The notes: generated by a model not told the origin, from the sequence alone. Positions 3,346-20,995 are shown, counted from the stretch's first letter. The stretch is 64,000 nt of DNA from Escherichia coli (GCF_965641715.1 NZ_OZ282453.1); one strand, 5' to 3'. Translations and numbers: made by a program.

Positions 3346-3498
3346 GTTATTAACCTCCTAAAGCCTGGCGATAACACGATAATTTGCAAATCAGATATTT
3401 CCAATATCAGCATTTGTTATCAATTTATTCTGCGCTAAGGCAACTGCCTGATAAGGTGTTAAAGTTATAAAACCCTTCGCATAAAGGAGTTGTACACC

Positions 3499-4269
3499 GT
3501 GCCTGGTTTGAAGATTACGCTTTTGCAGCAACCACTGGTGTGGATGGATGGTCCTGCCAACCTGCGCCATTTTGATCGTCAACTGGAAGGTATTACCGGG
3601 CGCGATGTGATCGTTCTACCGGAGATGTTTACCAGCGGCTTTGCCATGGAAGCGGCAGCTTCGTCGCTAGCGCAAGATGACGTAGTGAACTGGATGACAG
3701 CTAAAGCGCAGCAGTGCAATGCGCTGATTGCAGGCAGTGTTGCATTACAAACGGAGTCTGGTTCTGTTAACCGCTTTTTGCTGGTTGAGCCGGGCGGCAC
3801 GGTACATTTTTATGATAAGCGTCATCTGTTCCGCATGGCAGATGAGCATCTACATTATAAACCGGGCAATGCGCGAGTGATTGTGGAATGGCGCGGCTGG
3901 CGTATTTTGCCGCTGGTGTGCTACGACTTACGTTTTCCTGTGTGGTCGCGCAATCTCAACGATTATGACCTCGCCCTGTACGTCGCCAACTGGCCTGCTC
4001 CGCGCTCTCTGCACTGGCAGGCATTGCTGACGGCCCGCGCGATTGAGAATCAGGCGTATGTGGCGGGATGCAATCGCGTCGGCAGCGATGGCAACGGCTG
4101 CCATTATCGCGGTGACAGCCGGGTGATTAATCCACAAGGCGAGATTATCGCTACTGCCGACGCGCATCAGGCAACGCGCATTGATGCGGAGCTGTCGATG
4201 GTGGCATTGCGGGAATATAGAGAAAAGTTTCCGGCATGGCGGGATGCGGATGAGTTTAGGTTGTGGTGA
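3499..4269 (+). CDS. yafV: Nitrilase/omega-amidase family hydrolase YafV
   Basis: ORF 3490..4269; probable GTG start at 3499 giving [11 protein letters not shown]; carbon-nitrogen hydrolase family features and conserved position next to ivy. Confidence 0.85.
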
Positions 4270-4289
4270 GTGGGTGTTGTGTTTAGGGC

Positions 4290-4500
4290 AGGGGAGAGTC
4301 GGGGAAGACTACGAAAGCCCGCTCTCCTGCGACCACTTTTATCATAGGAGTGTGGAAGTGCTTTACCATCAATCGCGATGACGTCTTTGTCATTTGATGA
4401 ATGGCAGTCACGCATCCAGTTAATAAAGCACTCGTGAAATTATACTGAACGGATACAAGACATAACTCTAATTATGGTGTCGTGAACAGGATTACCATTT
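4290..4500 (-). mobile_element. Fragment of an ISAs1-family (H-repeat-associated) transposase gene, N-terminal portion only
   Basis: Minus-strand translation gives [40 protein letters not shown], matching the N-terminal region of H-repeat/ISAs1 transposases; truncated at both ends; ~80% identical at DNA level to 6250..6430. Confidence 0.6.
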
Positions 4501-4539
4501 TCAAAATTACAATATTATTTGCAGTAATTATGTTATTAA

Positions 4540-5052
4540 TCATTGTGATATTTCCATCTCTGTGATTAATACCGGATAAGCATTTAATTGCAGAGTTTGC
4601 ACGAAATTATCGCAGATAACTGGCAATAACAATAACCCATCAGCCCGCTGCTGTAATACCTCCATTCGTTCTACTGATTCAACATTAACAACCAAACCAA
4701 GGGCATTTAGCGATTTAAGGATCTCCAGATGTTCACTCATCCAGCGCAGAGAAAAAGGATCATCACCAATTATAAAAACAGGCCCCCAGCCGGTTAATAA
4801 CTGGCGTTTCATTACGGAACCAGGATGAAGTCGAGTACATATTACAGGAAATACCCCCTGTTGCGATGGTTCCGATGATGTGGATAATTCAGAAATATTT
4901 TCCATTGTTAGTGAAGAATTAACATGCATTAATAATGGTGAAACAACCTCACTTTCCTTGCTAGTAATGGCTGCACTAATCTGAAAGGAAAATAACAATA
5001 TTATTACGTATAAACTCATTTTTAACATAACACATTCAATCCGTTTATTCAT
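4540..5052 (-). CDS. Hypothetical protein with N-terminal hydrophobic signal/anchor (170 aa), AT-rich
   Basis: ORF with hydrophobic N-terminus (MSLYVIILLFSFQISAAITS); low GC relative to flanks; sits between two H-repeat fragments. Function unknown. Confidence 0.4.
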   Translation of the reverse strand: MNKRIECVMLKMSLYVIILLFSFQISAAITSKESEVVSPLLMHVNSSLTMENISELSTSSEPSQQGVFPVICTRLHPGSVMKRQLLTGWGPVFIIGDDPFSLRWMSEHLEILKSLNALGLVVNVESVERMEVLQQRADGLLLLPVICDNFVQTLQLNAYPVLITEMEISQ

Positions 5053-5118
5053 GTTATAGAATAATGATGCTATAAATCATCATTAATGTTCAATTATTTA
5101 ATCACACAATTTAAAAAA

Positions 5119-5622
5119 TCATTGACCAATGTGAATTGGCAATGTACCACTCAAGTTAAAATCACTGAATATTTTATCAATTTCTCTTGCAGTTTCTATA
5201 TATTTAACCTCTTTCGTACTTGCATTATAAATAGCCCAAGCCTCGGGATGGGATGTTCCACCAAACCTTACAAAAAAACTTGATTTCATATTATTATATA
5301 AATTAACATCAGGAAAAGGATCTTCTCCAAAATTAGTAGTATTGAATAATGAAAGTTCGTATCGCTTAGAAAATTCTGTTGGTAGGATAGCTTCACTGCC
5401 ATCAATAGCATTCATCCAGAGTTTGTTACCATTATATTCCAACAATAATCTCTGTTTTGCATGTGTCTTATCTCGTTCTTTAACGACAGCGAATACCTTT
5501 TTAACAACTTGCTGTGCGGATGGTCCTATTGTATTACCAAAAGCTGGCAACCCGATTTTGCCATAAACACTCTCCTGAATGAAATAAATATCCGTTTTAT
5601 CGGCCTCGACAATATCTACCAT
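5119..5622 (-). CDS. Hypothetical protein (167 aa), AT-rich, no recognisable motif
   Basis: Intact ORF between H-repeat fragments; the position suggests an orphan toxin/immunity-type cargo ORF, but nothing in the sequence confirms this. Confidence 0.4.
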   Translation of the reverse strand: MVDIVEADKTDIYFIQESVYGKIGLPAFGNTIGPSAQQVVKKVFAVVKERDKTHAKQRLLLEYNGNKLWMNAIDGSEAILPTEFSKRYELSLFNTTNFGEDPFPDVNLYNNMKSSFFVRFGGTSHPEAWAIYNASTKEVKYIETAREIDKIFSDFNLSGTLPIHIGQ

Positions 5623-5850
5623 TTATCCCTCCAAACAAGACCTGACTCCAGGACAAGAGCATAGTGTGTAGTAAACACTTCATGCTCTTGCCCTGACCAT
5701 TGAAATAACAACTTTCGTTTGTTTACTGTACGCTGTCTAAATAGCTGCGTGGAATAAAGTTGCACTTTTTATCATCCCTTGCAGAACAAGATTACGAAAG
5801 CCCGCCCCCGCAAGGACTGACGCGAGGTAGTCTCTGTCCGCAGCTGCTTT

Positions 5851-6620
5851 TCACATCTTACATCTTGCCCCTGCCTTGATTATCTTATCTTTCGTTAAAA
5901 TATTAATAGCGATCTTCCGTATCCCTGAAAATAATTCTGCTGCATTTCCTCTTCTTATTTTGAAGTCGTCTTTATTCATTACCACGTCCAGATGCCAGTG
6001 CAATTTATTCTCCACTTGCCAGTGATTTCGGTTCGCTGTGGCGAACTTCTCTGCGGTTAAATCAGCAGAAATGCTATAATATCTGACCGTCATTTCGGGA
6101 TTTTTCTTTTGTTCTGCTATTATTGAGCGAAATGAGACTGCCATGCATAATTTCTTCAGCCCTTTCCATTCAAACGTAAAATCAATAAATTCATCAGAGA
6201 CATGCAAACAATATGAAGACGGGTTTTAATGACATAAATTGCTCCCTTGTGACGACTTTTATCATAAGAGTGCCGGAGCGTTTTTCCATCAATTGTAATG
6301 ACGTCTTTATCATCTGAAGAATGACAGTCACGCATCCAGTTAATAAAGCACTCATGAAATTTTTCAGGACTGATACAGGATACAACTCTGGCAATGATAT
6401 CGTGAACAGGAATACCATTTTCAAAATCACCATATCACTTCAAAAAATCGGGATGTGTTTCCCCAAATCCTCTATATCTTCCCAGCATTATGCACCAGAA
6501 ATAACGGCGCAAATAGTTAACAGATAGAATATCTGGCAATTTATGTTCCACTTTCCAGGCTTGCCTGTAATCGGGGATAATAGAAATATGTTCCATCAAT
6601 TTTTTAAGTTCCATTTTGCC
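5851..6620 (-). mobile_element. Degenerate ISAs1-family (H-repeat) element: transposase gene with internal deletion and frame disruption
   Basis: Minus strand encodes [18 protein letters not shown] ... [25 protein letters not shown] (N-terminal part, ~6620..6250) joined to the C-terminal part [12 protein letters not shown] ... [37 protein letters not shown] (ORF 5851..6207); the middle of the transposase is missing. Confidence 0.7.
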
Positions 6621-6759
6621 CCCCTTAATTATGCAATGAGTATTTGATCATGTATAAGCAATGAAAAACAGCTTTAGGTAATAAGGAACACCTCAATTAT
6701 TGAACATAAAATGCGAATTATTTAGTACAAAAAAAGCAGCATTACGTGATTTTTCCCTG

Positions 6760-6817
6760 GGAGTACAGTGTGAAGTTTCCGGCATGGCGGGATGCGGATG
6801 GGTTTGAACTGGGGTGA
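6760..6817 (+). repeat. Diverged duplicate of the yafV 3' end (~58 bp, ~80% identical to 4210..4269)
   Basis: aagtttccggcatggcgggatgcggatg is identical to the last codons of yafV, followed by a diverged tail that still ends in gtga. Confidence 0.6.
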
Positions 6818-6871
6818 TTAGGCACTACATGTCTACATTTTCCCGGTCACCACCCCCTCAATCTTATGAAC

Positions 6872-8965
6872 TTAACCTCGGCTCACCGTTTTCGATTCCA
6901 TCCAATAAATGACCCGGTTGGATGTGGGCTGATCGCCAACAACTTTGCCATCTGCAGAGATTAGCTTCAGCTCTTTATTAGCCTCATCACCGAAGTAAAT
7001 CATGCGGTAGCGAAAATAACCGCCCCAGGGTTCGCGTCCACCCAGCGAACTTTGCATAAACCAGGCGCGGGAGTCGTGAACCTGGTCATCATAGAGAGCC
7101 AGTAATTCAGCGCAGGGCTGAGTACGCGTTCCCGTTCCCAGTGAATCAATAAAAAATTGTGGATAGAGTCCGTCTCCCATAGCCTTAATTTGCTGATATT
7201 CTTTTGCTTCATCATCGCCATTAATCAGATACACCGGATATTTAGGAATGACATCCACAAGAATCTGAATGGCTTTCTCCATGACGCTGCCGTTAATATC
7301 GCGCGTCCATCCTTTATAATCGCTCTGAAATTCTCGGGCTGCCTCTCGCAACTGATACTGAGCATTGGTTGGGTCAAGGATAGGAATGCCCTGATTACTT
7401 TCATCAAGTGTGCCATTCCCTTTCTGCTTGTTCGCCCGCTCTTTTTCAATATTTTCCATTTGTTCTTTACGCGCTTTAGCCTCTTTATCAAGTCCATCTT
7501 TATCCAGCTGTGGCGCCTTAATATAAAAAGGTTGCACAAGAAGGCTGTTATTCGCATAGCGACCGATACGCCAGGCGGTGATCCAGCCGATCTGATCGCT
7601 AATTGCGCTTTCAAGAACCTGGGCAAGTTGATAGGAGTGATAATCTTCCCTCGTATCAATCATTTCTTCTGTACCCTGCAAGGTGGTGTTCAGCAGCGTT
7701 TGTCGCCAGATGTTGAAGCGTTTTGTTAATGAATTAGCAATCGTAAATTCCTTTACGCTAGAAGGACTCATAATTCGCAGAGGCGACACACCTTTTATTA
7801 ATGGAGTAACAAATTTAGAATAAACAGCAAGTGGTGCTCCTGAATCAAATGCAGCAAGATACATATCATGCAGTGCTATCTGAGAAAGAATTTCGCCTGA
7901 GTCACCACAGGACTTCCCCTGATCGCGAACGGGATAGCCACCACCGACATCAGAGTGCATCCCCGGATAGATAATTTCCTCTGCATTTAAAGGATAATTT
8001 CCGTCTGGACGACGGATTGAATCCAGCGGAAAGCACAGCCGCTGCTCATGCGCGGCAACGAAGTGGCGGCAGCATTTAATCAGGCCGGGAAACTGCCTCT
8101 CATCAGGGAGTTGCTGAGTACTATCGGCCCATCCCATATGACCGGCAGCGCCCGGTAAAACATGCGCCGCCCCCACAGAAGCTACGGTATCCAGCAGCCC
8201 CAAAAACTCAATACTGACAGCTAACCCGGCCAGCATCACCTGTTGCTCCTGCGGGCAAGCTAACTGAGTCAACCAGTTAACAAAAGTTCGTGCTTCCGCT
8301 GCGCCACGGGAAAATCCGTAGATAAACAGCTTTACGTTTAGCAGGCGCGGACTGGCTTGCTCTAACAGTCCCTGTAATTTTTCCAGGTAGGGGTTAATCA
8401 CATTGCGACGATTCACTTCACCAGTCATAGGCCAGGGAGCGCGCATAAGAGGAATGTGCTCTTTTGCCACATTATCATCCAGTCGCTTATGGGAAGGGTC
8501 AATGGAATAGCTCAGGGCATCCACGAGGCGTAATAATGCCCAATTAATTCGATCTTCACCACCAGTAGCGAACTCCAGCCCGCTGTTGCTGTAATCCATT
8601 TCACCTATCTTGGGAAATGGTGTGCCTACACCCGGTATATAGTAGTTAAAATATCCCTGTTCTTCTGCGTTCTGATAGGTCGTATGAAACAGTTTGGCAA
8701 TATTGATTGGGTGTCCAGGAGTGTCATTATATTCATTATTATTTGTACCATCAAAAAACAGACTAATATGCAGACTTTGATTACACGTAAAGCCAATTCT
8801 AAATCCAGCCTGTTTACTACAGTTGGTTTTGTGCTCTTCTGTTTTATTGATTTGTTTTAGGTAGTTCGCGTTTACCTGCGCTTCAGATAATATTAATCGC
8901 CCATTTTCAGGAAACGCTGGGGGGGCATAACACGGAAAAGCCAGACCACTTATTTCGCTGGACAT
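6872..8965 (-). CDS. T6SS phospholipase effector candidate, Tle1-like (DUF2235 alpha/beta hydrolase, 697 aa)
   Basis: GxSxG nucleophile motif in KLFIYGFSRGAAEARTFVNWL; last gene of a vgrG-remnant/DUF4123 cargo module; family assignment from motif and context only. Confidence 0.55.
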   Translation of the reverse strand: MSSEISGLAFPCYAPPAFPENGRLILSEAQVNANYLKQINKTEEHKTNCSKQAGFRIGFTCNQSLHISLFFDGTNNNEYNDTPGHPINIAKLFHTTYQNAEEQGYFNYYIPGVGTPFPKIGEMDYSNSGLEFATGGEDRINWALLRLVDALSYSIDPSHKRLDDNVAKEHIPLMRAPWPMTGEVNRRNVINPYLEKLQGLLEQASPRLLNVKLFIYGFSRGAAEARTFVNWLTQLACPQEQQVMLAGLAVSIEFLGLLDTVASVGAAHVLPGAAGHMGWADSTQQLPDERQFPGLIKCCRHFVAAHEQRLCFPLDSIRRPDGNYPLNAEEIIYPGMHSDVGGGYPVRDQGKSCGDSGEILSQIALHDMYLAAFDSGAPLAVYSKFVTPLIKGVSPLRIMSPSSVKEFTIANSLTKRFNIWRQTLLNTTLQGTEEMIDTREDYHSYQLAQVLESAISDQIGWITAWRIGRYANNSLLVQPFYIKAPQLDKDGLDKEAKARKEQMENIEKERANKQKGNGTLDESNQGIPILDPTNAQYQLREAAREFQSDYKGWTRDINGSVMEKAIQILVDVIPKYPVYLINGDDEAKEYQQIKAMGDGLYPQFFIDSLGTGTRTQPCAELLALYDDQVHDSRAWFMQSSLGGREPWGGYFRYRMIYFGDEANKELKLISADGKVVGDQPTSNRVIYWMESKTVSRG

Positions 8966-9504
8966 GTTGCTGGTTCCTTCATCTCGCGGGGTTCTTTGAT
9001 GGGATAATTCGGTGTGCCATACTTCTGGCAGACGGTTGTCACTTTAATCTGATTACACGTTAGAAAATGAACGGTCAGGCCACAAAGCTCAGCATCGTAT
9101 TCCGGGATATCAACAATTGCGGTATGTTGAATGTAACTTTCTTTTAGTTTTTTCTCCCAGGCCTGATATTTATCCCAATCCTTATAGAGTGGTGGCGGAG
9201 GTACTGTATTTGGGGTAATTTCCCATTCAACCTGGGCTTTTAATCCAGAATGCCACTTATCTGGCAGCATAACGCAACAATATCCTCCACCGTCTCCGAA
9301 TGGACCAATATTTGGTCCGCCGTAACCATTGATGTGTATATAATTTATATCCTTATCCGTATGATTTATCCCATTAATATCCACAGCAGTGTAATCACCG
9401 CTATTTTTTGCCATTGAACAGCCTGATACTGCAAATAAAATCATTAGAGAATAACATTTGAAAATCGTTCTCATACTGATACTTTTCCTTATTTTGCTGG
9501 ACAT
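8950..9504 (-). CDS. Small lipoprotein, candidate Tle immunity protein (Tli-like)
   Basis: Lipobox-type signal peptide MRTIFKCYSLMILFAVSGC if translation starts at ATG 9474 (ORF track start 9504); 16 nt overlap with the start of the Tle1-like gene. Confidence 0.45.
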   Translation of the reverse strand: MSSKIRKSISMRTIFKCYSLMILFAVSGCSMAKNSGDYTAVDINGINHTDKDINYIHINGYGGPNIGPFGDGGGYCCVMLPDKWHSGLKAQVEWEITPNTVPPPPLYKDWDKYQAWEKKLKESYIQHTAIVDIPEYDAELCGLTVHFLTCNQIKVTTVCQKYGTPNYPIKEPREMKEPATCPAK

Positions 9505-9817
9505 GTTGCTGGTTCTTTTACTTTGAGAGATTTTAATTGATGGGTATTGTTTCTACGACAATAAAGTTTTGACAAAGAAGCAAATAAAATGCATATCTTT
9601 CGATTGTCACACATTGGAATATCGACAGAGCATTGATGATATTACGCAAAATATATTGCAGCCAAGTGAACTGACATTACGATCGAACACAAATGCAACA
9701 TGATGGATACTACCATTACATGTCGAGCTTGATTTTCCGTTTATTTCACGATTATCTCTTGATATTAACAGCTACGGACTTTTAAACAGATAAATCTCCC
9801 CGTACATCACCACAATA

Positions 9818-10588
9818 TTATCCTTCGAAGTCCCGCAAAGCTCCGAAATATTTCGCGTCATTGGCTCTGAAAGCAATATCAAGACAGTGGGCAAAATAGC
9901 TTTCCTGACTGAGTTCACTGACTGCTTTCTCCTTCATCAGGACTTCAGCGTCGCAGATACAGCCCATCAATCCCACCTGTACATCATCCACCCGATTCAT
10001 CTCCGGGTTGTCAGTAAGCCTGCGTTCTGGTGAAAAACTTCCTGATTTCCAGTTAATCTCACCATCACGGTCTAACCAGCTCCAGAACAACGCAATATCA
10101 GTAAATGTCGCCTGCTGCTCGTTAGTCAAAACATGTGTGAACAGTAAAGGGAACACCCGATTATCATAGTAACGCAGCAATCCGGTCTGTTCTTCCCACT
10201 GAACCTGTGACAATACCTGAAGATGCCGCCCCAGCAGGTCGAATGTAAGAGGGGATATCAACAAAGTAAGACGCGGCGTATCAGCAAATGACGCCATCAG
10301 TTGTGCCAGAAATTTGCGATGGCTACTGAGCGCAAAGTACAGGCGTAACACTACAGGGGAATACTCCATCGTCTCAGCTTCAGGCGTTCCTTCAAACAGG
10401 GCATACCAGTGAATGGCTGGCCACAGATGAAGTATCTCATTTTGCAAAGGTTGGTCGGTTCCAGCCTGGTCAACAAGCACATCTATGTAATCCAAACCAG
10501 CGGCAGAACAGAATGATTCAGCCTGCTTCAGCCAGATAATATATTTGTCTTGATCGGTAGCGCGTGGCGATACTGTTATCATCGTCAT
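9818..10588 (-). CDS. DUF4123-family T6SS effector adaptor/chaperone (Tap/Tec-like)
   Basis: 256 aa; N-terminal YIDVLVDQAG and central LLRYYDNRVFPLL resemble the DUF4123 signature segments (compare YAIVDGA / LMRFYDPRNIWVL in ORF 18198..19040); immediately follows a vgrG tail. Confidence 0.55.
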   Translation of the reverse strand: MTMITVSPRATDQDKYIIWLKQAESFCSAAGLDYIDVLVDQAGTDQPLQNEILHLWPAIHWYALFEGTPEAETMEYSPVVLRLYFALSSHRKFLAQLMASFADTPRLTLLISPLTFDLLGRHLQVLSQVQWEEQTGLLRYYDNRVFPLLFTHVLTNEQQATFTDIALFWSWLDRDGEINWKSGSFSPERRLTDNPEMNRVDDVQVGLMGCICDAEVLMKEKAVSELSQESYFAHCLDIAFRANDAKYFGALRDFEG

Positions 10589-10594
10589 TCTCCC

Positions 10595-11051
10595 TTATCC
10601 ACGAGGCGCAAAAGCGGCGGCGGCTTCCTGCGCCCTTTTCAGGCACTCCTTACACACCGATTTTTCTGGCGCTTCCTCACCCTCATCGTTGTTATCATTC
10701 TGATCGGACGATGCATTACTATCATTTTGCTCAGCCGCTAAACTTTTATCATCTGCCAGCGCTTTCAGAACCGCCGGTTGCAGCGTCGGCACCGGCGTTC
10801 CCGGACTACCGCCGCTATTGAGATTGATTTTCGGCCCGACGATGTCCACGCCCCCTGAATGGATGACCACAAACGAACCGCCCACCTTCAGGCTTATCCG
10901 GCTGCTGCTCTCCAGCACCACATCGCCCTCCACCTTTAACCACGCCACCGCAGTCAATGGCATCACCGGTTCTGGCGGTAGGTTTATCGTCGATAAAGGC
11001 GGAAGAGGTGTTTCCGGCTCTTAAGAAATATTTACGCACATGCACCAGCAT
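10595..11051 (-). pseudogene. Remnant fusing the 3' end of a PAAR gene to the 3' tail of a vgrG gene (internal deletion)
   Basis: One frame encodes FIDDKPTARTGDAIDCGGVV (PAAR C-terminus, compare PAAR 15133..15417); the adjacent frame encodes LKVEGDVVLESSSRISLKVGGSFVVIHSGGVDIVGPKINLNSGG (VgrG tail, compare vgrG2) followed by an acidic linker. Confidence 0.6.
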
Positions 11052-11082
11052 TACAGAAAATAAAACCTGCGATACATTTTAA

Positions 11083-11859
11083 TCAATAAGGTTGCTTTAC
11101 CAAGCTTCCATCGATATTGATGGAAAATTCATTAGACCTAATATGAACAGAATGTTGCTCATCATCTTTATCTAATATTTGATTAACAAAAAAAAACGTA
11201 TTTTTATCAAATTCATAATTATCACATCCCTCTCCACTAAATGATATAGCTCTAAAATCATATTCATTACATGAGTATCTTTTCATCAAAATAGAGAGGA
11301 ATGTTTCATTAATTGATTTTAATACAAACCATTTTCTCCTAACAAGTTTGTAGTTTAATGTTTTTATATGATAATTATTTAAACTGGGGAGAAATGAATG
11401 CATATCATTCAATTTTACATCAAAAGATATTTTTTTACCTGCCGTAATTTCCACCCATCGGCTCAAATTCAAATCAAGCTCAAAGGGACAAAAGCCTCCT
11501 AGATAGTCTAAGCTAATATTTCCTGATGTAATCAAGAATTCGTCATCACACAAAGCATCAAATACATCTCCATTTCCTTTTTGGAAGTTCTTTGGATAAT
11601 ATATTCTGGGGAGAAAATACGATTTAGTACTACTGTTATAAAAAGTTATAGTAGCTAAAATATTTTCAGCATGTGGCTTAACCACCAATTTAACAACAAC
11701 ATCATTTGTTAATTCATTACTTATATTTTCCTCTGGCGCTAAATTATGGCTAAGATAAATAATTGGTTTCCCATTGTCACTTCTTCGTTCAAAACCGAAT
11801 CTGTATTTTTTTACAAAAAGATTCTCATTATCTATTGCAATTGCAATAGATAATGGCAA
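11083..11859 (-). CDS. Hypothetical protein, candidate immunity protein for the upstream metallopeptidase-like effector; N-terminal signal peptide is out of frame
   Basis: Body ORF starts at TTG 11859; a 31-codon ORF from ATG 11923 (one nt after the effector stop) encodes MKRLAFYNLNYVVLMVFFSLFFAIIYCNCNR in the other frame; the two frames would join if one base were removed from the homopolymer tract. Confidence 0.45.
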   Translation of the reverse strand: MPLSIAIAIDNENLFVKKYRFGFERRSDNGKPIIYLSHNLAPEENISNELTNDVVVKLVVKPHAENILATITFYNSSTKSYFLPRIYYPKNFQKGNGDVFDALCDDEFLITSGNISLDYLGGFCPFELDLNLSRWVEITAGKKISFDVKLNDMHSFLPSLNNYHIKTLNYKLVRRKWFVLKSINETFLSILMKRYSCNEYDFRAISFSGEGCDNYEFDKNTFFFVNQILDKDDEQHSVHIRSNEFSINIDGSLVKQPY

Positions 11860-11924
11860 AAAACAAAGAAAAAAAAACCATCAGTACAACATAATTTAGA
11901 TTATAGAAAGCCAACCTCTTCATC

Positions 11925-12728
11925 TTATTTCCCCGTCAACTCATCAAAACATTTTTCTATCTCTTTTATTTTATCCTCTACTTTTTTTGCTAACATATTC
12001 TCATCTTGAGCTTCAATATCTTCATCATTTAATTTTATATAAAAATATCTTTCAACATTATATGCATTCTCAAATAACTGATCTTTACGCAATGTAACCA
12101 GATCATTAGCCACTGAAACATGTTTCTCATAGCTAACTTCATCCTTATTACTTGTTGCGAACTTATTAATACCCGTATAATCCTGAGTCCACATACCACC
12201 TTTTTGATTGTCACCCCAATACCAAAATATATGGGACATTTCATGGCAAAGTGTACTTACATGAGAGTCTCTACCTGTAACCGACTGTTTTATACCATGT
12301 CTGTATTCAAAATGCGCTCCGATATTTACAATGTAAGGAGGATCAAGATGTGGACTAATAAAAGCAGCAAATTCATTGCAGTTCGTATAATCTTTATAGC
12401 TTTCGATCGTCAAACCATTTGCAATCGTCATTATTCGTCTGATGCCATCCATTATGAATAGTCTCGCTTGCATTCGTTTCCCAGTATCTTCCCCAACTTT
12501 TCTGATTTTTATAATGTCCTCGCCTTTAAGGCCAAAAACTTTAATAAAATCTCGTTGTTGTTCCCCCTCCCATGACATAATATCATCTGCTCTTTTCAAT
12601 AAAACCATTTTCTGTGCTTTACAAGCCTTACTCATCATTATTTTAAATTTATTTGTAATTTTTTGCGGTACTACACATACTTGCGACTCGGGTTGTGAAG
12701 TCCCACTAGTATTATTATTCCCTGCCAT
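11925..12728 (-). CDS. HExxH zinc-metallopeptidase-like T6SS effector candidate (268 aa)
   Basis: HEMSH motif followed by WTQDYTG (loosely aspzincin-like); start ATG at 12728 (MAGNNNTSG) overlaps the vgrG2 stop; the longer ORF 11925..13103 is not used because it overlaps vgrG2. Confidence 0.55.
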   Translation of the reverse strand: MAGNNNTSGTSQPESQVCVVPQKITNKFKIMMSKACKAQKMVLLKRADDIMSWEGEQQRDFIKVFGLKGEDIIKIRKVGEDTGKRMQARLFIMDGIRRIMTIANGLTIESYKDYTNCNEFAAFISPHLDPPYIVNIGAHFEYRHGIKQSVTGRDSHVSTLCHEMSHIFWYWGDNQKGGMWTQDYTGINKFATSNKDEVSYEKHVSVANDLVTLRKDQLFENAYNVERYFYIKLNDEDIEAQDENMLAKKVEDKIKEIEKCFDELTGK

Positions 12729-15114
12729 AATGCCCCTCCGGCTCAATATAAAAAGCATCCGAAAATAACAATTGGACTTTAATTTCCTGTGCTGTATCTG
12801 TATAAAATATTTCTGTATATCCCTCTCTGTCTGTTTCACCACGCGTCTGTGTGCCATCCTCAAAAAAGGCAATATACTGCGTCTCTGAATACGGTATCCC
12901 GTCATCGTCCGTAAAATGGAACTGGAGGGTATATTTTTCAGGATCATCTTCATCGTCACCGCCATCACCTCCTCCGTCACTCCCTGCGGGATTGCCACTA
13001 TCCTCTCCGGAGTCATCACTGCCATCATCACTGCTCTCATCCTCCGGAGCCTCCAGCACCGCCGGCTGCATCGTCCCCACCGGTGTCCCCGCACTGCCCC
13101 CACCGTTCAGGTTTATCTTCGGCCCGGCAATATCCACTCCGCCCGGCTGAATGACGATAAACGAGCCACCCACCTTCAGGCTTATCCGGCTGCTGCTCTC
13201 CAGCACGATATCCCCGTCCACTTTTATCCCCAGCGCGCCACTCACCTTCTCCGCCAGGTCCCCCTTCACCTCCAGGCTGTGCTTCCCCTCCACCAGGCTG
13301 ATGTGGTTACCCGTCGTCTTATGCTCCTGCTTCCCTTTCACCGTCACCCTACGGTCATTTCTGACGTACAGACCGTCATCGTGACTCACGCTCACCGTCC
13401 GGTCATTTGTCACCTTCAGCGTCTGGTCGTTACGTACCGTTATGCTCCGGTCGTTCGCCACCGTGATACTCTGGTCGTGGCCTCCTTCTTTTCTGGTCCC
13501 GACCTCAACCGTCTGCCCCTTCACCACCGTTATCTTCTGGTCGTTACCAATGGTCTCCGTATGGTCATGTTTCACATCCGTTGTCCGGTCGTTGAGCACC
13601 TCCGTATCCATGTTCTTCTGCGCATGGATATACACCTGCTCATTACTGGTGGCGTCCTCAAAGCGCAACTCGTTAAATCCGCTTCCTTTATAGGTCTTCG
13701 ACCGTATCGTCATCTGCGTCTTCGTCCCCGGCAGGCTCCCCGGCGAACGGTTGTCCTCATGGTACGTCCGGCCCATGACCAGCGGCTGGTCCGGGTCTCC
13801 GTTCAGGAAGTCAACAATCACCTCCTGACCCACCCGCGGTATCGCCAGGTTACCAAACCCCGGCCCCGCCCACGCCTGTGATACCCGCACCCAGCATGAA
13901 CTCGCCTCCGTCATCCCGTGATAACGGTCCCAGTGGAACTTCACCCGTACCCGGCCATGTTCGTCGCAGAATATCTCCTCACCCTTCGGCCCGGTGACAA
14001 TGGCGCTCTGCGGCCCGTCCACCTTCGGTTTGCTTTGCAGCCGTGGACGCCACGTCCGGTCCGCCGGTATCACCTCTAACTGATTTCCCAGCGTGGTTCC
14101 TCTCCCCTGGCTGCCGTGCAGCGCCTGCGGCTGGCTTCCTGACAGTATGCTCTGTACCACCTGCCATTCACGGTTCAGCATCTTCTGCGGATGCCCCGTC
14201 AGCGTAAACCGCGTTCCCGGCCACAGCCTCGGCGAATTACTCTGCCCTGTGGCCTTTTCCGCATCACTGCGCAGGCTCTCCATCTGGTACAGCGTGAAAT
14301 CCTTGCCGTGCTGCTCATCCTTGAACCTTCCCGGATAATCAAATATCTCGTACTGCGCCAGCTGTCCGTTCAGGTTCTCACCCTGCTGCTCATACATCCC
14401 CGGCCAGTCCGGCACCTTAAACGTGTAATCCTGGCTCTGCACCGACGACGGGCGGACATGCGCCTCATAACGGAACATACTGAGACACTCCGTCTCCGCT
14501 CCTGCCGATGTGTCCGGGTTAAACGGAAGCTCTCCCGCCTGTGACAGCCCCGCCACATCGTCGCACAGCGTCAGCTTCTGCTCCGGACTGTCCGCCGCAA
14601 ACCGCTCAAAGAAGAAAATTCCTTCTTCCGCCCACAGCCGAGCCAGAAACGCCAGGTCGCTCTCCCCGTACTGGACACAGAACTCCCGCGCCGGATGGTC
14701 TTCATAAAACAGCGGAGTCCACTCCGTGACGCCGTTCTCGTTCAGTAACGTGGCCGATATCGTCCGGATATCCTGCTGCTGAAAAATACGAAAGTTCTGC
14801 CGCAGCCCGCACCGCCATAACGGCGGCTCAATACGCAGGTGATAACGCATCTGCCAGCCGTTGTTCTCCTGCATGCCAAAGCCCGCCACCACGCCGGTGA
14901 CATAACGCTGCGCCACCGCGCCCTGCCAGATGGCCAGCGTCGCCTTCTTCTCCAGCAGCATCTCCGCCGTCTGCATAAAAGAGTCGCTGGCAACATCCAC
15001 ACTCATCACAAACGGATAAGACTGGTTCTGGATTAACCTGAAATTCACCACTGCAAAGGTGTCCGGCTCCTGGCCGTCAATCTCCAGCGTAAAGCGCAGA
15101 CCGTTTAAGGACAT
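12715..15114 (-). CDS. vgrG: VgrG spike protein with C-terminal extension (799 aa)
   Basis: N-terminal 480 aa identical to the vgrG at 19037..20995; gp27/gp5-like repeats (VKGDLAEKVSG..., ISLKVGGSF...); acidic D/E/G/S linker and an extra ~60 aa C-terminal domain. Confidence 0.9.
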   Translation of the reverse strand: MSLNGLRFTLEIDGQEPDTFAVVNFRLIQNQSYPFVMSVDVASDSFMQTAEMLLEKKATLAIWQGAVAQRYVTGVVAGFGMQENNGWQMRYHLRIEPPLWRCGLRQNFRIFQQQDIRTISATLLNENGVTEWTPLFYEDHPAREFCVQYGESDLAFLARLWAEEGIFFFERFAADSPEQKLTLCDDVAGLSQAGELPFNPDTSAGAETECLSMFRYEAHVRPSSVQSQDYTFKVPDWPGMYEQQGENLNGQLAQYEIFDYPGRFKDEQHGKDFTLYQMESLRSDAEKATGQSNSPRLWPGTRFTLTGHPQKMLNREWQVVQSILSGSQPQALHGSQGRGTTLGNQLEVIPADRTWRPRLQSKPKVDGPQSAIVTGPKGEEIFCDEHGRVRVKFHWDRYHGMTEASSCWVRVSQAWAGPGFGNLAIPRVGQEVIVDFLNGDPDQPLVMGRTYHEDNRSPGSLPGTKTQMTIRSKTYKGSGFNELRFEDATSNEQVYIHAQKNMDTEVLNDRTTDVKHDHTETIGNDQKITVVKGQTVEVGTRKEGGHDQSITVANDRSITVRNDQTLKVTNDRTVSVSHDDGLYVRNDRRVTVKGKQEHKTTGNHISLVEGKHSLEVKGDLAEKVSGALGIKVDGDIVLESSSRISLKVGGSFIVIQPGGVDIAGPKINLNGGGSAGTPVGTMQPAVLEAPEDESSDDGSDDSGEDSGNPAGSDGGGDGGDDEDDPEKYTLQFHFTDDDGIPYSETQYIAFFEDGTQTRGETDREGYTEIFYTDTAQEIKVQLLFSDAFYIEPEGHYGRE

Positions 15115-15132
15115 AAATACCTCTCAGACATA

Positions 15133-15417
15133 TCAGCCTATATTTACCGTACCGCCACCAATGACCACACCACCACAGTCGATGGCATCACCGGTTCTGG
15201 CGGCGGGCAGGCCGTCAATAAAGACGGTTGAAGAACCTCTGGCGATTTTACGGGGATGAGGTGGATGCTTCGGTTTAGCATGCGGCGTCAGCGGATCTCC
15301 CTGGCGAGCAGCAGGTAATCCATCAATAAATACCGTGGATGAAGCCGCAATGATGACTGTCTCACGGTAGCCATCATGCTGAGTACCTTTGTCGTTTAAT
15401 CTGGCAGCTAAAGGCAT
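15133..15417 (-). CDS. PAAR-domain spike tip protein (94 aa)
   Basis: Duplicated SSTVFIDGLPAAR(Q/T)GD motifs and C-terminal AIDCGGVVIGGG; located directly upstream of vgrG2. Confidence 0.8.
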   Translation of the reverse strand: MPLAARLNDKGTQHDGYRETVIIAASSTVFIDGLPAARQGDPLTPHAKPKHPPHPRKIARGSSTVFIDGLPAARTGDAIDCGGVVIGGGTVNIG

Positions 15418-15527
15418 AATTCCTCCTGTTCAGAATATCAGCGACAAAAAATTTAAAAAACGGTAAGGTGCTTAACTCAGCAATAATCACCTTACCGGAC
15501 ATCCTGATTTGTAGCCCAACAGGTTAA

Positions 15528-16538: not shown

Positions 16539-16604
16539 AATTATTTTCTCTTAAAAGGAAAAGACTCTCATTATATTGAGTGATTTTAATTGCTGTAATA
16601 TCAC

Positions 16605-18176: not shown

Positions 18177-18197
18177 ATAATCTATCCGTTTGTCTTT

Positions 18198-19040
18198 TTA
18201 TTGCGGGATAAATCCCAGTTCCTGTTGTGCAAGTTCATGTACCCGAATATGTCCCGGGTATGACTGATTGCTGAGTTGTTCATACCAGTCATCCGGAATA
18301 TATCTGAGATCGATTATATTTTTTTTCAGTAATATAAGCGTCATTGTTCTGACGGAACGATCATCTGCTATATTTAATGACTGGCAAAAAGAGAAATAAT
18401 CTTCTGCCAGAATTCGGGATGATTCAGCTTTTGATAAATCATCCCATCCGTCTTTATCTACATTTTCTTCGATAAATGCAGATAATATATCAAGATAATT
18501 ATCCCGTGCCTTTCGTTCCAGTTGGCTATATTGTCTGTAACTCAGCGTCAGTTGTGATGGCCGTTCTGCCCTTATATTCATAGTTTCTGCGGGACGGACG
18601 GAAGAAAAATTATCCTCACGACATTCTTCACCATAGCGGGTACTTAGCTGTCTGACGGGGCTGATAAAAGAAAGAAGCTGGCGGGGGGTCAGAACTTCCG
18701 CTAATACCCATATATTCCGGGGATCATAAAATCGCATGAGAACAGGTTTCTCCTGTTCGGGGATCATAACCCACAGATAACGTCTGAAGTGTTGCTGTAG
18801 CTCACGTATGGATGACTCAGAAGTAAGATATATTCCCCACGGCGACGCCTTATCACTCAGCCATGCTTCAACTTCCGGAACAACCTCCACGAGATAAGGG
18901 GCCAGCGCGACCAGATCCGGTTGTATGGGTTCTGCATACAGACAACAGTGCGGGGGATTCACCTCGTTCAGAAAATCCAGCAATCCTTCCTCCACAGCGC
19001 CATCCACAATGGCGTACTGCACGGGTGCCGTTTCCATCAC
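18198..19040 (-). CDS. DUF4123-family T6SS effector adaptor/chaperone
   Basis: YAIVDGA near the N-terminus and LMRFYDPRNIWVL in the middle; 4 nt overlap with the vgrG1 stop. Confidence 0.65.
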   Translation of the reverse strand: MMETAPVQYAIVDGAVEEGLLDFLNEVNPPHCCLYAEPIQPDLVALAPYLVEVVPEVEAWLSDKASPWGIYLTSESSIRELQQHFRRYLWVMIPEQEKPVLMRFYDPRNIWVLAEVLTPRQLLSFISPVRQLSTRYGEECREDNFSSVRPAETMNIRAERPSQLTLSYRQYSQLERKARDNYLDILSAFIEENVDKDGWDDLSKAESSRILAEDYFSFCQSLNIADDRSVRTMTLILLKKNIIDLRYIPDDWYEQLSNQSYPGHIRVHELAQQELGFIPQ

Positions 19041-20995
19041 TTATCCTCCTTCGGACAATGCGACACGAACATCGAACCACTTCCGGCTGCGGCTTTCAGG
19101 ATCACCGGGCGCATCGGCAGGATCACATCCCCCGGACTGCCCCCGCCGTTAAGATTGATTTTCGCGCCCTTAATATCCACGCCGCCGGAATGGATCACCA
19201 CAAATGAACCGCCCACCCGCAGACTGATTTTGCTGTCGCTCTGTAAAACAATATCGCCCTGTACGCTGATACCCAGCGCGCCGCTTATTTTCTGTGCCAG
19301 ATCGCCTTTCACCTCCAGTCCCTGATTGCCCTCTGTCAGGCTGACGTGGTCTTTGGTGGTTTTATGGTCCTGTTTACCTTCAACCGTCACTTTCCGGTCA
19401 TTTGCCACCACCAGGGATTCATCATGCCCGATGCTGACCGTCCGGTCATAGTTGACCCGCTTATCCTTGCTGTTCAGCACAACGACCTGCATATTTTTCT
19501 GTGCGTGCAGATAAATTTCTTCCTTGTCCGTGGCGTCCTCAAACCGCAGTTCGTTAAATCCGCTTCCTTTATAGGTCTTTGACCGTATCGTCATCTGCGT
19601 CTTCGTCCCCGGCAGACTCCCCGGCGAACGGTTGTCCTCATGGTATGTCCGGCCCATGATTATCGGCTGGTCCGGGTCTCCGTTCAGGAAGTCAACAATC
19701 ACCTCCTGACCCACCCGCGGTATCGCCAGGTTACCGAACCCCGGCCCCGCCCACGCCTGCGATACCCGCACCCAGCATGAACTCGCCTCCGTCATCCCGT
19801 GATAACGGTCCCAGTGGAACTTCACCCGTACCCGGCCATGTTCGTCGCAGAATATCTCCTCACCCTTCGGCCCGGTCACAATGGCACTCTGCGGCCCGTC
19901 CACCTTCGGTTTGCTTTGCAGCCGTGGACGCCACGTCCGGTCTGCCGGTATCACCTCTAACTGATTTCCCAGCGTGGTTCCCCTCCCCTGGCTGCCGTGC
20001 AGCGCCTGCGGCTGGCTTCCTGACAGTATGCTCTGTACCACCTGCCATTCACGGTTCAGCATCTTCTGCGGATGCCCCGTCAGCGTAAACCGCGTTCCCG
20101 GCCACAGCCTCGGCGAATTACTCTGCCCTGTGGCCTTTTCCGCATCACTGCGCAGGCTCTCCATCTGGTACAGCGTGAAATCCTTGCCGTGCTGCTCATC
20201 CTTGAACCTTCCCGGATAATCAAATATCTCATACTGCGCCAGCTGTCCGTTCAGGTTCTCACCCTGCTGCTCATACATCCCCGGCCAGTCCGGCACCTTA
20301 AACGTGTAATCCTGGCTCTGCACCGACGACGGGCGGACATACGCCTCATAACGGAACATACTGACACACTCTGTCTCCGCTCCTGCCGATGTGTCCGGGT
20401 TAAACGGAAGCTCTCCCGCCTGTGACAGCCCCGCCACATCGTCGCACAGCGTCAGCTTCTGCTCCGGACTGTCCGCCGCAAACCGCTCAAAGAAGAAAAT
20501 TCCCTCCTCCGCCCACAGCCGCGCCAGAAACGCCAGGTCCGACTCCCCGTACTGCACACAGAACTCCCGCGCCGGATGGTCCTCATAAAACAGCGGCGTC
20601 CACTCCGTGACGCCGTTCTCGTTCAGTAACGTGGCCGATATCGTCCGGATATCCTGCTGCTGGAAGATACGGAAGTTCTGCCGCAGCCCGCACCGCCATA
20701 ACGGCGGCTCAATACGCAGGTGATAACGCATCTGCCAGCCATTGTTCTCCTGCATACCAAAACCCGCCACCACGCCGGTGACATAACGCTGCGCCACCGC
20801 GCCCTGCCAGATGGTCAGCGTCGCCTTCTTCTCCAGCAGCATCTCCGCCGTCTGCATAAAAGAGTCGCTGGCAACATCCACACTCATCACAAACGGATAT
20901 GACTGGTTCTGGATTAACCTGAAATTCACCACTGCAAAGGTGTCCGGCTCCTGGCCGTCAATCTCCAGCGTAAAGCGCAGACCGTTTAAGGACAT
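19037..20995 (-). CDS. vgrG: VgrG spike protein (652 aa, no C-terminal extension)
   Basis: Full-length VgrG architecture; first ~480 aa identical to vgrG2, diverging in the C-terminal third. Confidence 0.9.
   Translation of the reverse strand: MSLNGLRFTLEIDGQEPDTFAVVNFRLIQNQSYPFVMSVDVASDSFMQTAEMLLEKKATLTIWQGAVAQRYVTGVVAGFGMQENNGWQMRYHLRIEPPLWRCGLRQNFRIFQQQDIRTISATLLNENGVTEWTPLFYEDHPAREFCVQYGESDLAFLARLWAEEGIFFFERFAADSPEQKLTLCDDVAGLSQAGELPFNPDTSAGAETECVSMFRYEAYVRPSSVQSQDYTFKVPDWPGMYEQQGENLNGQLAQYEIFDYPGRFKDEQHGKDFTLYQMESLRSDAEKATGQSNSPRLWPGTRFTLTGHPQKMLNREWQVVQSILSGSQPQALHGSQGRGTTLGNQLEVIPADRTWRPRLQSKPKVDGPQSAIVTGPKGEEIFCDEHGRVRVKFHWDRYHGMTEASSCWVRVSQAWAGPGFGNLAIPRVGQEVIVDFLNGDPDQPIIMGRTYHEDNRSPGSLPGTKTQMTIRSKTYKGSGFNELRFEDATDKEEIYLHAQKNMQVVVLNSKDKRVNYDRTVSIGHDESLVVANDRKVTVEGKQDHKTTKDHVSLTEGNQGLEVKGDLAQKISGALGISVQGDIVLQSDSKISLRVGGSFVVIHSGGVDIKGAKINLNGGGSPGDVILPMRPVILKAAAGSGSMFVSHCPKEDK

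What the first reader, a model, noticed from the sequence alone, without database searches (positions are those of the whole stretch)
6872..11051. Third cargo module behind a deleted PAAR-vgrG: remnant, DUF4123 adaptor, lipoprotein, Tle1-like phospholipase candidate
10595..11051 contains the last ~20 codons of a PAAR gene joined, with a frame change, to the last ~120 codons of a vgrG whose acidic tail differs from vgrG1 and vgrG2. That indicates a former third PAAR-vgrG unit was collapsed by a deletion. Its cargo (adaptor, lipoprotein, 697 aa GxSxG hydrolase) is intact but now lacks its own spike gene, which raises the question of whether the Tle1-like effector is still delivered, and by which VgrG.
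Basis: partly seen in the sequence, partly recalled or inferred. Interest (0 to 1): 0.55.

Follow-up and report, generated by a model that had tools for sequence, protein, structure and literature searches.

The report
Tle1 toxin module without its spike
In this E. coli type VI secretion island, a phospholipase toxin, its chaperone and its immunity gene are intact, but the spike gene that should carry the toxin is reduced to a 3' stub, so the toxin is probably stranded; this is a well-understood kind of gene decay.

Summary
Window 10595-10941 (-) is the last 115 codons of a vgrG, 96.8% identical to the intact vgrG that precedes tla1 in other E. coli. Window 10927-11006 (-) is an internal-to-3' piece of a PAAR gene, joined to it out of frame across about 15 nt of imperfect homology.

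The cargo is an ortholog set of the P. aeruginosa Tle1 locus:
- Tle1-like phospholipase, matching PDB 4O5P at E 3e-117.
- Tla1, the DUF4123 chaperone.
- Tli1a, the DUF3304 lipoprotein.

RefSeq already annotates these genes and the vgrG stub.

The same junction occurs in 12 of 5,426 complete E. coli genomes, always with the upstream M35 module. Strain N96 keeps the intact order M35-X-PAAR-vgrG-tla1-tli1a-tle1.

In 66 of 74 tla1 loci from many genera, the upstream VgrG ends in a conserved motif, SVC(K/E)(E/D)CLK(K/R)A...R. In P. aeruginosa the corresponding last 20 residues bind Tla1 and Tle1. In the window only the stub encodes this motif; VgrG1 and VgrG2 lack it.

I infer that Tle1 can no longer be loaded, and that the module survives mainly as immunity. 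This is an ordinary new member of a known kind.

The parts
6872..8965 (-). tle1-like phospholipase effector, 697 aa, intact. Its ATG overlaps the tli1a stop by 16 nt.
   Evidence: phmmer to PDB 4O5P (P. aeruginosa Tle1) gives E 3.4e-117 over residues 11-677. Pfam PF09994 catalytic and PF22137 C-terminal domains are present. GFSRG is at 217, LDTV at 258 and HSDVGGGY at 337. RefSeq calls it 'T6SS phospholipase effector Tle1-like'.
8919..8925 (-). C7 homopolymer in codons 14-16 of tle1. It is polymorphic (C6) in sister genomes.
   Evidence: C6 is found in 8 of 12 junction-bearing genomes on two allele backgrounds, and C7 in 10 of 10 canonical genomes.
8950..9504 (-). tli1a, a DUF3304 outer-membrane lipoprotein immunity candidate. 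There is a single copy here, against 2-3 tandem copies in canonical strains.
   Evidence: NCBIfam NF053804 Tli1a_fam scores 211 bits against a cut-off of 110. The lipobox is VSGC with Cys29. Copy number is shown.
9818..10588 (-). tla1, the DUF4123 chaperone/adaptor of Tle1, intact.
   Evidence: NCBIfam NF053803 Tla1 equivalog scores 220.2 bits against a cut-off of 200. Homologs carry PF13503. The AF2 model has pLDDT above 90 over residues 10-250.
10595..10941 (-). vgrG 3' remnant: the last 115 codons plus stop. It holds the last beta-helix rungs, an acidic linker and the conserved C-terminal docking motif SVCKECLKRAQEAAAAFAPRG.
   Evidence: It is 96.8% identical to the 3' end of the intact EC28/A42 vgrG. 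The motif is shared with 66 of 74 tla1-linked VgrGs. RefSeq relatives annotate it as a partial VgrG pseudogene.
10927..10941 (-). Deletion junction, with about 15 nt of imperfect homology between the PAAR 3' end and vgrG codon ~629, and a frame change.
   Evidence: The BLAST matches overlap. The identical junction is present in 12 genomes.
10927..11006 (-). PAAR gene fragment, about codons 62-88 of 94, truncated at both ends.
   Evidence: blastn to the window PAAR (15227..15152) gives 79%. NCBIfam NF033420 covers profile positions 59-91 at 35.8 bits, below the cut-off of 124.
11007..11082 (-). Spacer with no PAAR or vgrG homology, between the stop of the 258-aa gene and the PAAR fragment.
   Evidence: Nothing aligns upstream of 11006. 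The Salmonella homolog region ends at 11081-11123.
11083..12728 (-). Upstream module cargo: an M35-like metallopeptidase candidate (11925-12728, HEMSH motif) and a 258-aa protein (11083-11859, presumed immunity). This module always travels with the remnant.
   Evidence: The block occurs in the same 12 genomes as the junction, at 99.4% identity or more. Pfam Aspzincin_M35 is weak at E 0.002. Salmonella homologs lie in hcp-vgrG-M35-X islands.
12715..15417 (-). Intact PAAR (15133-15417) and vgrG2 (12715-15114, 799 aa, long C-terminal extension without the Tla1 docking motif).
   Evidence: NCBIfam PAAR scores 157 bits and TIGR03361 scores 599 bits.
19037..20995 (-). vgrG1 (652 aa), with its own DUF4123 adaptor downstream. 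Its tail lacks the docking motif.
   Evidence: TIGR03361 scores 598 bits. The motif regex hits only the remnant in the whole window.

Best explanation
This is the vgrG/effector end of the E. coli T6SS-1 island, which lies between yafV and tRNA-Asp aspV.

Ancestral operon (inferred from the canonical genomes and from Yersinia, Serratia and Pseudomonas). The order is hcp-vgrG-tla1-tli1a(n)-tle1. VgrG carries a flexible C-terminal extension ending in a short helix plus a terminal strand. The chaperone Tla1 (DUF4123) and the catalytic domain of Tle1 clamp that tail, so Tle1 rides on the spike. Tli1a, an outer-membrane lipoprotein, protects sister cells. These interactions were shown experimentally in P. 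aeruginosa.

This lineage (shown by sequence). Two further spike/cargo modules sit between hcp and tla1. The Tle1-specific spike gene was decapitated. About 1.9 kb, running from the last codons of a preceding PAAR gene to vgrG codon ~629, was lost across a ~15-nt imperfect homology. The first ~61 PAAR codons are also gone. What remains is an out-of-frame PAAR'-'vgrG stub. The stub still encodes the docking tail but has no gp27/gp5 spike body.

Consequence (inferred). No VgrG encoded in the window carries the docking motif, so Tla1-Tle1 can no longer be mounted on a spike and Tle1 is not delivered by its canonical route. The module persists because tli1a still protects against Tle1-armed relatives, and because tla1 and tle1 have not yet decayed in this strain.
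For: Component identity:
- Tle1-like matches 4O5P at E 3e-117 and has both Pfam Tle1 domains.
- Tla1 and Tli1a score above the curated NCBIfam cut-offs.

Remnant anatomy.

Arrangements in relatives:
- The canonical arrangement with an intact vgrG is seen.
- The intact PAAR-vgrG-tla1 order is seen in N96.
- The junction and the M35 block occur in the same 12 of 5,426 genomes.

Docking tail:
- In P. aeruginosa the last 20 residues of VgrG4a bind Tla1 and Tle1, and point mutants lose binding (PMC13133936).
- In 66 of 74 tla1 loci across Enterobacterales, Pseudomonas and others, the VgrG immediately upstream ends with LPELPxSVCxxCLxxA...R. Both Cys and the Ala are invariant (66/66) and the Arg is present in 62/66.
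- The stub has this motif.
- VgrG1 and VgrG2 do not have it.
- A six-frame motif search of the 64 kb hits only the stub.
- Tail-coding DNA occurs once per genome in all 67 E. coli genomes that have it. In the 12 junction genomes, that single copy is the stub.

The machine itself is complete in the window: TssA-M, ClpV, Hcp and TagH.

Signs of decay in sister genomes:
- tla1 is frameshifted in PapRG-04-4.
- An IS600 lies between the stub and tla1 in FDAARGOS_943.
- A C7-to-C6 slip removes the coupled ATG start of tle1 in 8 of 12 junction genomes, against 0 of 10 canonical genomes.
Against: - No experiment exists on the E. coli proteins. The requirement for the tail is transferred from an ortholog whose Tla1 is about 35% identical.
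- My AF2 test of Tla1-linker-tail docking was not discriminating. The non-cognate VgrG1 tail gave the same helix-plus-strand topology with only slightly lower confidence.
- Only 64 kb of this genome is visible. In the sister genomes, only DNA-level searches were possible, so a VgrG elsewhere with a strongly diverged copy of the motif cannot be excluded.
- tle1, tla1 and tli1a are all intact in the window, which could equally mean they are still in use.
- The C6 variants keep a long ORF from a downstream GTG, and they could in part be homopolymer assembly errors.
Confidence: 0.62

Rival explanations
1. Tle1 is still delivered by another carrier. Tla1-Tle1 might bind VgrG1 or VgrG2 (alone or in heterotrimers), a PAAR protein, Hcp, or a VgrG encoded outside the window, so the stub would be irrelevant debris.
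For: - The three cargo genes are intact in the window and the T6SS core is complete.
- In P. aeruginosa, Tle1 also contacts VgrG directly.
- In the distantly related EAEC system, Tle1 binds a VgrG C-terminal domain without an adaptor (6SJL matches at E 6e-7; the mechanism is from my own knowledge of Flaugnatti et al.).
- In Yersinia, Serratia and Photorhabdus a PAAR gene follows tle1.
Against: - The docking motif is nearly universal in tla1-linked VgrGs and absent from VgrG1 and VgrG2.
- VgrG1 has its own DUF4123 adaptor, and VgrG2 its own cargo.
- No second copy of the tail DNA exists in the 12 sister genomes.
- Several sister genomes carry lesions in tla1 or in the tle1 start.
Confidence: 0.22
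2. The stub was never a local deletion. The PAAR'-'vgrG-tail(-tla1) segment is the right-hand end of an imported vgrG2-M35-immunity cassette. It served as the homology arm for integration, replacing the resident full-length vgrG in one recombination step. This is an alternative history with the same functional outcome.
For: - The junction and the M35 block are strictly co-distributed in 12 of 12 genomes.
- The block is at least 99.4% identical among these genomes, while tle1 downstream varies from 92 to 99.9% and tli1a alleles differ.
- Allele switches occur inside the last 35 nt of the stub.
- Related Salmonella islands also contain PAAR and vgrG debris.
Against: - N96 shows that an intact PAAR-vgrG(tail)-tla1 intermediate exists in E. 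coli.
- The pattern is also explained by one ancestral deletion followed by later recombination in tle1/tli1a.
- No donor with the cassette plus stub was found outside E. coli.
Confidence: 0.4
3. The stub is expressed as a small protein of about 115-123 aa (beta-helix end plus docking tail). It would act on Tla1-Tle1 either as a decoy that keeps the toxin unloaded or as a bridging piece.
For: - An uninterrupted ORF (10595-10966) is conserved in all 7 sister genomes examined.
- It lies inside an operon with no convincing terminator upstream.
- It retains the complete motif.
Against: - The ORF begins with GTG/ATG without a recognisable Shine-Dalgarno sequence (read).
- The sister copies are nearly identical, so conservation says nothing about selection.
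- RefSeq treats it as a pseudogene.
- No precedent is known to me.
Confidence: 0.05

Closest known systems
P. aeruginosa tle1 locus: VgrG4a-Tla1-Tli1a/Tli1b-Tle1 (PA3294-PA3290). Sources: Lefebvre et al. 2026, PMC13133936; Tle1 structure 4O5P.
   Same: - Same gene order.
- Tle1 is homologous over almost its whole length (E 3e-117).
- Tla1 is a DUF4123 protein scoring above the Tla1 equivalog cut-off.
- Tli1a is a DUF3304 lipoprotein.
- The VgrG tail carries the same CxxCL...R terminal motif that docks Tla1 and Tle1.
   Different: - Here the VgrG is reduced to its last 115 codons and fused out of frame to a PAAR fragment.
- The E. coli VgrG body is of the T6SS-1 type, with an acidic Asn/Asp-rich linker.
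- The E. coli Tle1 is 697 aa, against 884 aa for the P. aeruginosa chain.
- Nothing has been tested experimentally in E. coli.
Canonical E. coli T6SS-1 cargo operon hcp-vgrG-tla1-tli1a x2-3-tle1 (e.g. strains NC101, EC28, A42, AF5, PSUO2).
   Same: - Same chromosomal site (yafV-aspV).
- tle1 is 98.4% identical, tla1 97-98%, and the vgrG tail 97-100%.
   Different: - Those strains have a full-length 743-aa vgrG and no M35 or PAAR modules.
- They usually have three tli1a copies and always C7 in the tle1 poly-C tract.
EAEC Sci-1 Tle1-Tli1-VgrG1 (PDB 6SJL/6SK0).
   Same: A Tle1-family phospholipase carried on a VgrG C-terminal extension in an E. coli T6SS-1, with a lipoprotein immunity protein.
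   Different: - It is only distantly related (E 6e-7 over ~140 residues).
- Binding to a TTR domain of VgrG1 is direct and needs no DUF4123 adaptor (own knowledge).
- The immunity family is different.
Effector-module displacement in T6SS auxiliary clusters, which leaves orphan immunity genes and truncated vgrG/rhs 3' ends. Own knowledge: V. cholerae, Kirchberger et al. 2017; Agrobacterium vgrG C-termini, Bondage et al. 2016; displaced Rhs tips.
   Same: Recombination in conserved spike or adaptor genes stacks or replaces modules and leaves non-functional leftovers next to retained immunity genes.
   Different: Here the leftover keeps the whole effector, chaperone and immunity set and loses only the spike body. 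The junction also involves a PAAR gene and is illegitimate (microhomology) rather than homologous.

Membership tests
Tle1 family T6SS phospholipase effectors (DUF2235) | Tle1-like catalytic domain plus Tle1-like C-terminal (membrane-anchoring) domain | tested here: met
   PF09994 is found in two stretches (E 1e-13 and 5e-7) and PF22137 at E 1e-56. 4O5P matches at E 3.4e-117 over residues 11-677.
Tle1 family T6SS phospholipase effectors (DUF2235) | GxSxG nucleophile motif with conserved Asp and His | tested here: met
   GFS219RG, LD259TV and H337SDVGGGY all align to identical motifs in 4O5P.
Tle1 family T6SS phospholipase effectors (DUF2235) | Phospholipase activity, periplasmic toxicity, T6SS-dependent export | not testable with these tools
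   This needs enzyme, toxicity and secretion assays.
Tla1 (DUF4123 chaperone/adaptor of Tle1) | Scores above the curated equivalog cut-off and is encoded between vgrG and tli1a-tle1 | tested here: met
   NF053803 scores 220.2 bits against a cut-off of 200. The synteny is conserved in Yersinia, Serratia and Pseudomonas and in 56 of 66 motif-bearing loci with tle1 downstream.
Tla1 (DUF4123 chaperone/adaptor of Tle1) | Binds the VgrG C-terminal tail and Tle1 | tested here: inconclusive
   AF2 on the Tla1-linker-tail fusion gave a helix plus a 3-residue strand with pLDDT up to 85. The non-cognate VgrG1 tail gave a similar result at pLDDT 63-76.
Tli1a (DUF3304 immunity lipoprotein) | Family profile above cut-off, plus a lipoprotein signal peptide | tested here: met
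   NF053804 scores 211 bits against a cut-off of 110. The lipobox is VSGC with Cys29, and there is no Asp at +2.
Functional VgrG spike (TssI) | gp27-like and gp5-like N-terminal body (TIGR03361/TIGR01646) | tested here: not met
   The 123-aa remnant ORF has no NCBIfam hit. Only the last 115 codons align to intact vgrG.
Tla1-docking VgrG tail | C-terminal motif SVCxxCLxxA(9-10 residues)R within 18-24 residues of the C-terminus | tested here: met
   The remnant ends in SVCKECLKRAQEAAAAFAPRG. The consensus comes from 66 loci. VgrG1 and VgrG2 of the window do not have it.
PAAR protein | Complete PAAR domain (NF033420, 94 positions, cut-off 124 bits) | tested here: not met
   The fragment covers positions 59-91 only and scores 35.8 bits. 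The intact PAAR at 15133-15417 scores 157 bits.

The most novel reading that the evidence does not exclude
The PAAR'-'vgrG-tail stub is the portable right-hand homology arm of the vgrG2-M35-immunity cassette. Each time the cassette recombines into a canonical T6SS-1 locus it decapitates the resident Tle1-specific spike. This would turn a Tle1 attacker into a Tle1-immune, M35-armed strain. The stranded tle1 would then be silenced recurrently by slippage in its 5' C7 tract. The tract is C6 on two allele backgrounds in 8 of 12 junction genomes, and never in 10 canonical genomes.
Probability: 0.25. Interest if true: 0.45.

Novelty: new member of a known kind. Interest (0 to 1): 0.3.

Why it matters
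The window gives a natural loss-of-carrier allele for a recently characterised effector-loading mechanism (Tle1-Tla1-VgrG tail). It also extends that mechanism by comparison: the VgrG docking tail is a short, nearly invariant CxxCL...R motif from E. coli to Pseudomonas. For annotation and for predicting a strain's T6SS arsenal, the lesson is that an intact effector, chaperone and immunity trio should not be counted as a usable weapon unless a VgrG with the matching tail exists. Beyond that, the finding is routine genome decay in a hypervariable island.

Tried and rejected
1. Mosaic vgrG. I first read the stub as a mosaic, with a vgrG2-like 60 nt followed by the canonical tail, because AF5 and N96 differ from it at 10880-10941. 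I rejected this when the EC28/A42 allele of the canonical vgrG matched the whole 347 nt.

2. Donor search for the M35 cassette. Homologs of the 258-aa protein exist only in E. coli and, at about 50% identity, in Salmonella. There the gene is followed by IS elements or other genes, not by an intact PAAR-vgrG. This did not decide between in-situ deletion and import.

3. Protein search with the 40-aa tail. It returned only 2 candidates and was uninformative.

4. AF2 docking of the tail on Tla1 as a single-chain fusion. The cognate result looked like the published AF3 model. The control with the VgrG1 tail in the query row behaved similarly, so I do not count this as evidence.

5. Promoter and terminator scan of 6500-13000. 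Counts were no more than chance, and there was no convincing terminator between the M35 module and tla1.

6. tle1 decay. I considered that tle1 is simply decaying. In the window it is intact. The C6 frameshift in sister genomes leaves a GTG-initiated ORF, so inactivation is not proven.

7. EAEC-type adaptor-free loading on the VgrG2 C-terminal extension. The two Tle1 proteins are only remotely related, and VgrG2 is followed by its own cargo.

Full report
**Where we are.** The window is E. coli chromosome. fadE (307-2829), ivy and yafV (3490-4269) flank one side, and tRNA-Asp aspV (43483-43559) followed by an rrn operon flanks the other. Between them lies a complete T6SS-1 cluster with tssB, C, E, F, G, tagH, tssJ, K, L, clpV, vasI, tssA, tssM and a second hcp. 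The finding sits at the divergently transcribed hcp/vgrG end.

Reading the minus strand from hcp (21216-21734), there are three modules:
- Module 1 is vgrG1 (652 aa), a DUF4123 protein, a 523-aa protein and a 336-aa protein.
- Module 2 is PAAR (15133-15417), vgrG2 (799 aa), an M35-like peptidase and a 258-aa protein.
- Module 3 is the stub (10595-11006), tla1, tli1a and tle1-like, followed by ISAs1 debris.

- Within the window, 10941..10749 matches vgrG2 (78%, E 2e-41) and vgrG1. Window 11002..10927 matches the PAAR gene (79%, E 4e-13). The two matches overlap by 15 nt.
- Against the intact 743-aa vgrG that precedes tla1 in strains EC28 and A42, the stretch 10941..10595 has 11 mismatches in 347 nt. 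It is therefore the last 115 codons plus stop of that gene.
- PAAR homology spans 11006..10927, which is profile positions 59-91 of 94. Nothing upstream of 11006 resembles PAAR, so the PAAR piece is cut at both ends.
- At the junction, GTTAAAGGTGGAGGG resembles both the PAAR 3' end and vgrG codons ~629-633. This is typical of an illegitimate, microhomology-guided deletion.
- Using N96 or EC28 as the yardstick, about 1.9 kb is missing.
- The vgrG frame is +1 relative to the PAAR frame.

**What the cargo is.**
- The 697-aa protein matches the solved P. aeruginosa Tle1 (4O5P) at E 3e-117 over residues 11-677. GFS219RG, D259 and H337 are aligned, and both Pfam Tle1 domains are present.
- The 256-aa protein exceeds the curated NCBIfam cut-off for the Tla1 chaperone.
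- The 184-aa protein exceeds the cut-off for the Tli1a immunity family and has a lipobox.
- RefSeq already uses these names, and it calls the stub a partial VgrG pseudogene.
- The PAAR fragment is not annotated in any of the records I examined.

**Population context.**
- Among 5,426 complete E. coli genomes, the tail-coding DNA occurs in 67, always once per genome.
- Every non-junction genome I examined shows the canonical hcp-vgrG-tla1-tli1a(2-3)-tle1 order.
- Twelve genomes have the same PAAR'-'vgrG junction, and exactly those twelve have the M35/258-aa block.
- None has the window's full three-module arrangement.
- Strain N96 has hcp-vgrG-M35'-X-PAAR-vgrG(tail)-tla1-tli1a x3-tle1.
- The M35-stub block is at least 99.4% identical among the twelve genomes, whereas tle1 ranges from 92 to 99.9% and tli1a alleles differ. 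Allele switches fall within the last 35 nt of the stub. Either the block has spread by recombination, using the stub and tla1 as a homology arm, or tle1/tli1a were exchanged later. I cannot tell which.

**Which VgrG could carry Tle1?**
- In P. aeruginosa, the last 20 residues of the VgrG4a extension sit in a crevice between Tla1 and the Tle1 catalytic domain. These residues form a short helix and a three-residue terminal strand. Charge mutants in the tail abolish binding (PMC13133936).
- I collected 71 tla1 loci from species-representative genomes plus three from protein look-ups.
- In 66 of these 74 loci, the ORF ending just upstream of tla1 ends with LPELPxSVC(K/E)(E/D)CL(K)(K/R)A(Q/R)xxAxG(F/L)VxR. 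Forty-nine of those ORFs are full-length VgrGs and most of the rest are cut by contig ends.
- Both Cys and the Ala are invariant (66/66) and the Arg is present in 62/66.
- The VgrG bodies differ. Yersinia, Serratia and Pseudomonas have DUF2345-type bodies, while E. coli has an acidic linker. The tail is what stays conserved.
- The stub ends in PEKSVCKECLKRAQEAAAAFAPRG, so it carries the motif.
- VgrG1 (...SMFVSHCPKEDK) and VgrG2 (...EPEGHYGRE) have nothing like it.
- A six-frame motif search of the whole window hits only the stub.
- By inference, Tla1-Tle1 has lost its mounting point.

**Limits of that inference.**
- It rests on an ortholog and on comparative conservation.
- My attempt to test docking with AF2 failed its control. 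A Tla1-(GGGGS)6-tail fusion with a paired alignment of 26 loci reproduced a helix (299-307) and a terminal strand (312-314) at pLDDT 61-85. Replacing the query tail with the VgrG1 tail gave the same topology at pLDDT 63-76.
- I could search the rest of the sister genomes only at the DNA level.

**Signs of decay in sister genomes.**
- PapRG-04-4 has a frameshifted tla1 and has lost the T6SS core.
- 2018-05-2CC has lost the core and tli1a.
- FDAARGOS_943 has an IS600 between the stub and tla1, and an IS1 in tli1a.
- A C7 tract in codons 14-16 of tle1 (window 8919-8925) is C6 in 8 of the 12 junction genomes, on two different allele backgrounds. It is C7 in all 10 canonical genomes examined (Fisher p 0.0017, uncorrected for relatedness).
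- C6 ends the frame that starts at the ATG overlapping the tli1a stop. An overlap of 13-16 nt is also seen in Yersinia, Serratia and Pseudomonas. C6 leaves only a GTG-initiated ORF.
- This fits relaxed selection on a stranded toxin. It could also be harmless or partly an assembly artefact.
- In the window itself the tract is C7 and all three genes are intact.

**Verdict.** The object is a known system: an E. coli ortholog of the Tle1-Tla1-Tli1a-VgrG module, in a known kind of state, namely a pseudogenised spike in a recombining vgrG island. The useful additions are:
- the mapped junction;
- the population picture;
- the cross-genus docking motif;
- the inference that Tle1 is orphaned here.

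Interest is modest.

Noticed in passing
window 8919-8925 (-), inside tle1 codons 14-16: A C7 homopolymer is shortened to C6 in 8 of 12 junction-bearing complete genomes, on two tle1 allele backgrounds. It is C7 in 10 of 10 canonical genomes. C6 destroys the ATG start that overlaps the tli1a stop, and PGAP then calls a GTG start 32-47 nt downstream. This could be recurrent silencing, phase variation or a homopolymer assembly error.
   Followed up: partly
window 11083-15114 (-): vgrG2 has a ~150-aa acidic and beta-rich C-terminal extension. It is followed, with overlapping ORFs, by an M35-like metallopeptidase candidate (HEMSH at residue 163; Pfam Aspzincin_M35 only E 0.002) and a 258-aa protein with no family. 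Homologs at about 50% identity occur only in Salmonella hcp-vgrG-M35-X islands. This looks like an uncharacterised effector/immunity pair.
   Followed up: partly
window 15528-19040 (-): The VgrG1 module contains a second, divergent DUF4123 adaptor (36.8 bits to Tla1, far below the cut-off), a 523-aa protein with no Pfam or NCBIfam hit, and a 336-aa protein with an N-terminal signal-like segment. This is a candidate unknown effector/immunity pair, common in many E. coli (about 96% identical over window 13649-21995).
   Followed up: no
L013 (Salmonella enterica serovar Moero, AAZOCN010000020.1) 3522-3708 and 8375-8713: A related M35 island contains a PAAR gene with an internal deletion (residues 1-36 joined to 51-79) and vgrG 3'-end debris. 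PAAR and vgrG wreckage therefore seems recurrent in these islands.
   Followed up: no
window 8950-9504; L002, L004, L017: The tli1a copy number varies from 1 (window) to 2-3 in other E. coli, where one copy is often frameshifted, and to 5 in Serratia marcescens. Alleles are only 76-90% identical between E. coli strains while tla1 stays at 97% or more. The 313-nt gap between tla1 and the first tli1a is conserved.
   Followed up: partly
L015 (Citrobacter freundii CP056473.1) 4110-10796: This is another decayed Tle1 module. The vgrG upstream of tla1 matches only in two tblastn pieces and has no called gene, no tli1a gene was called, and tle1 is split by an IS3-family element.
   Followed up: no
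loci L027, L032, L055, L061, L067, L071, L082, L089: Eight of 74 tla1 loci lack a motif-bearing VgrG immediately upstream, yet most still have tle1 downstream. Orphaned Tla1-Tle1 modules may therefore be fairly common. L050 (Pseudomonas agarici) has a 294-aa motif-bearing ORF that may be another vgrG 3' stub.
   Followed up: no
window 4300-6650: The distal end of the island consists of ISAs1 (H-repeat) transposase debris (5851-6614 and 4167-4415) and two low-GC ORFs (4540-5052, annotated 'integrating conjugative element protein' in relatives; 5119-5622). GC content is 34-40%, against about 51% for the flanks.
   Followed up: no
L001/L003 (strains 23CRST031 and 23CRST027) and window 12715-20995: These sister genomes look like the window with the vgrG1 cargo and the PAAR removed by recombination between the nearly identical 5' parts of vgrG1 and vgrG2. 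Their single vgrG is annotated as frameshifted. No complete genome in the collection has the window's full three-module layout.
   Followed up: partly
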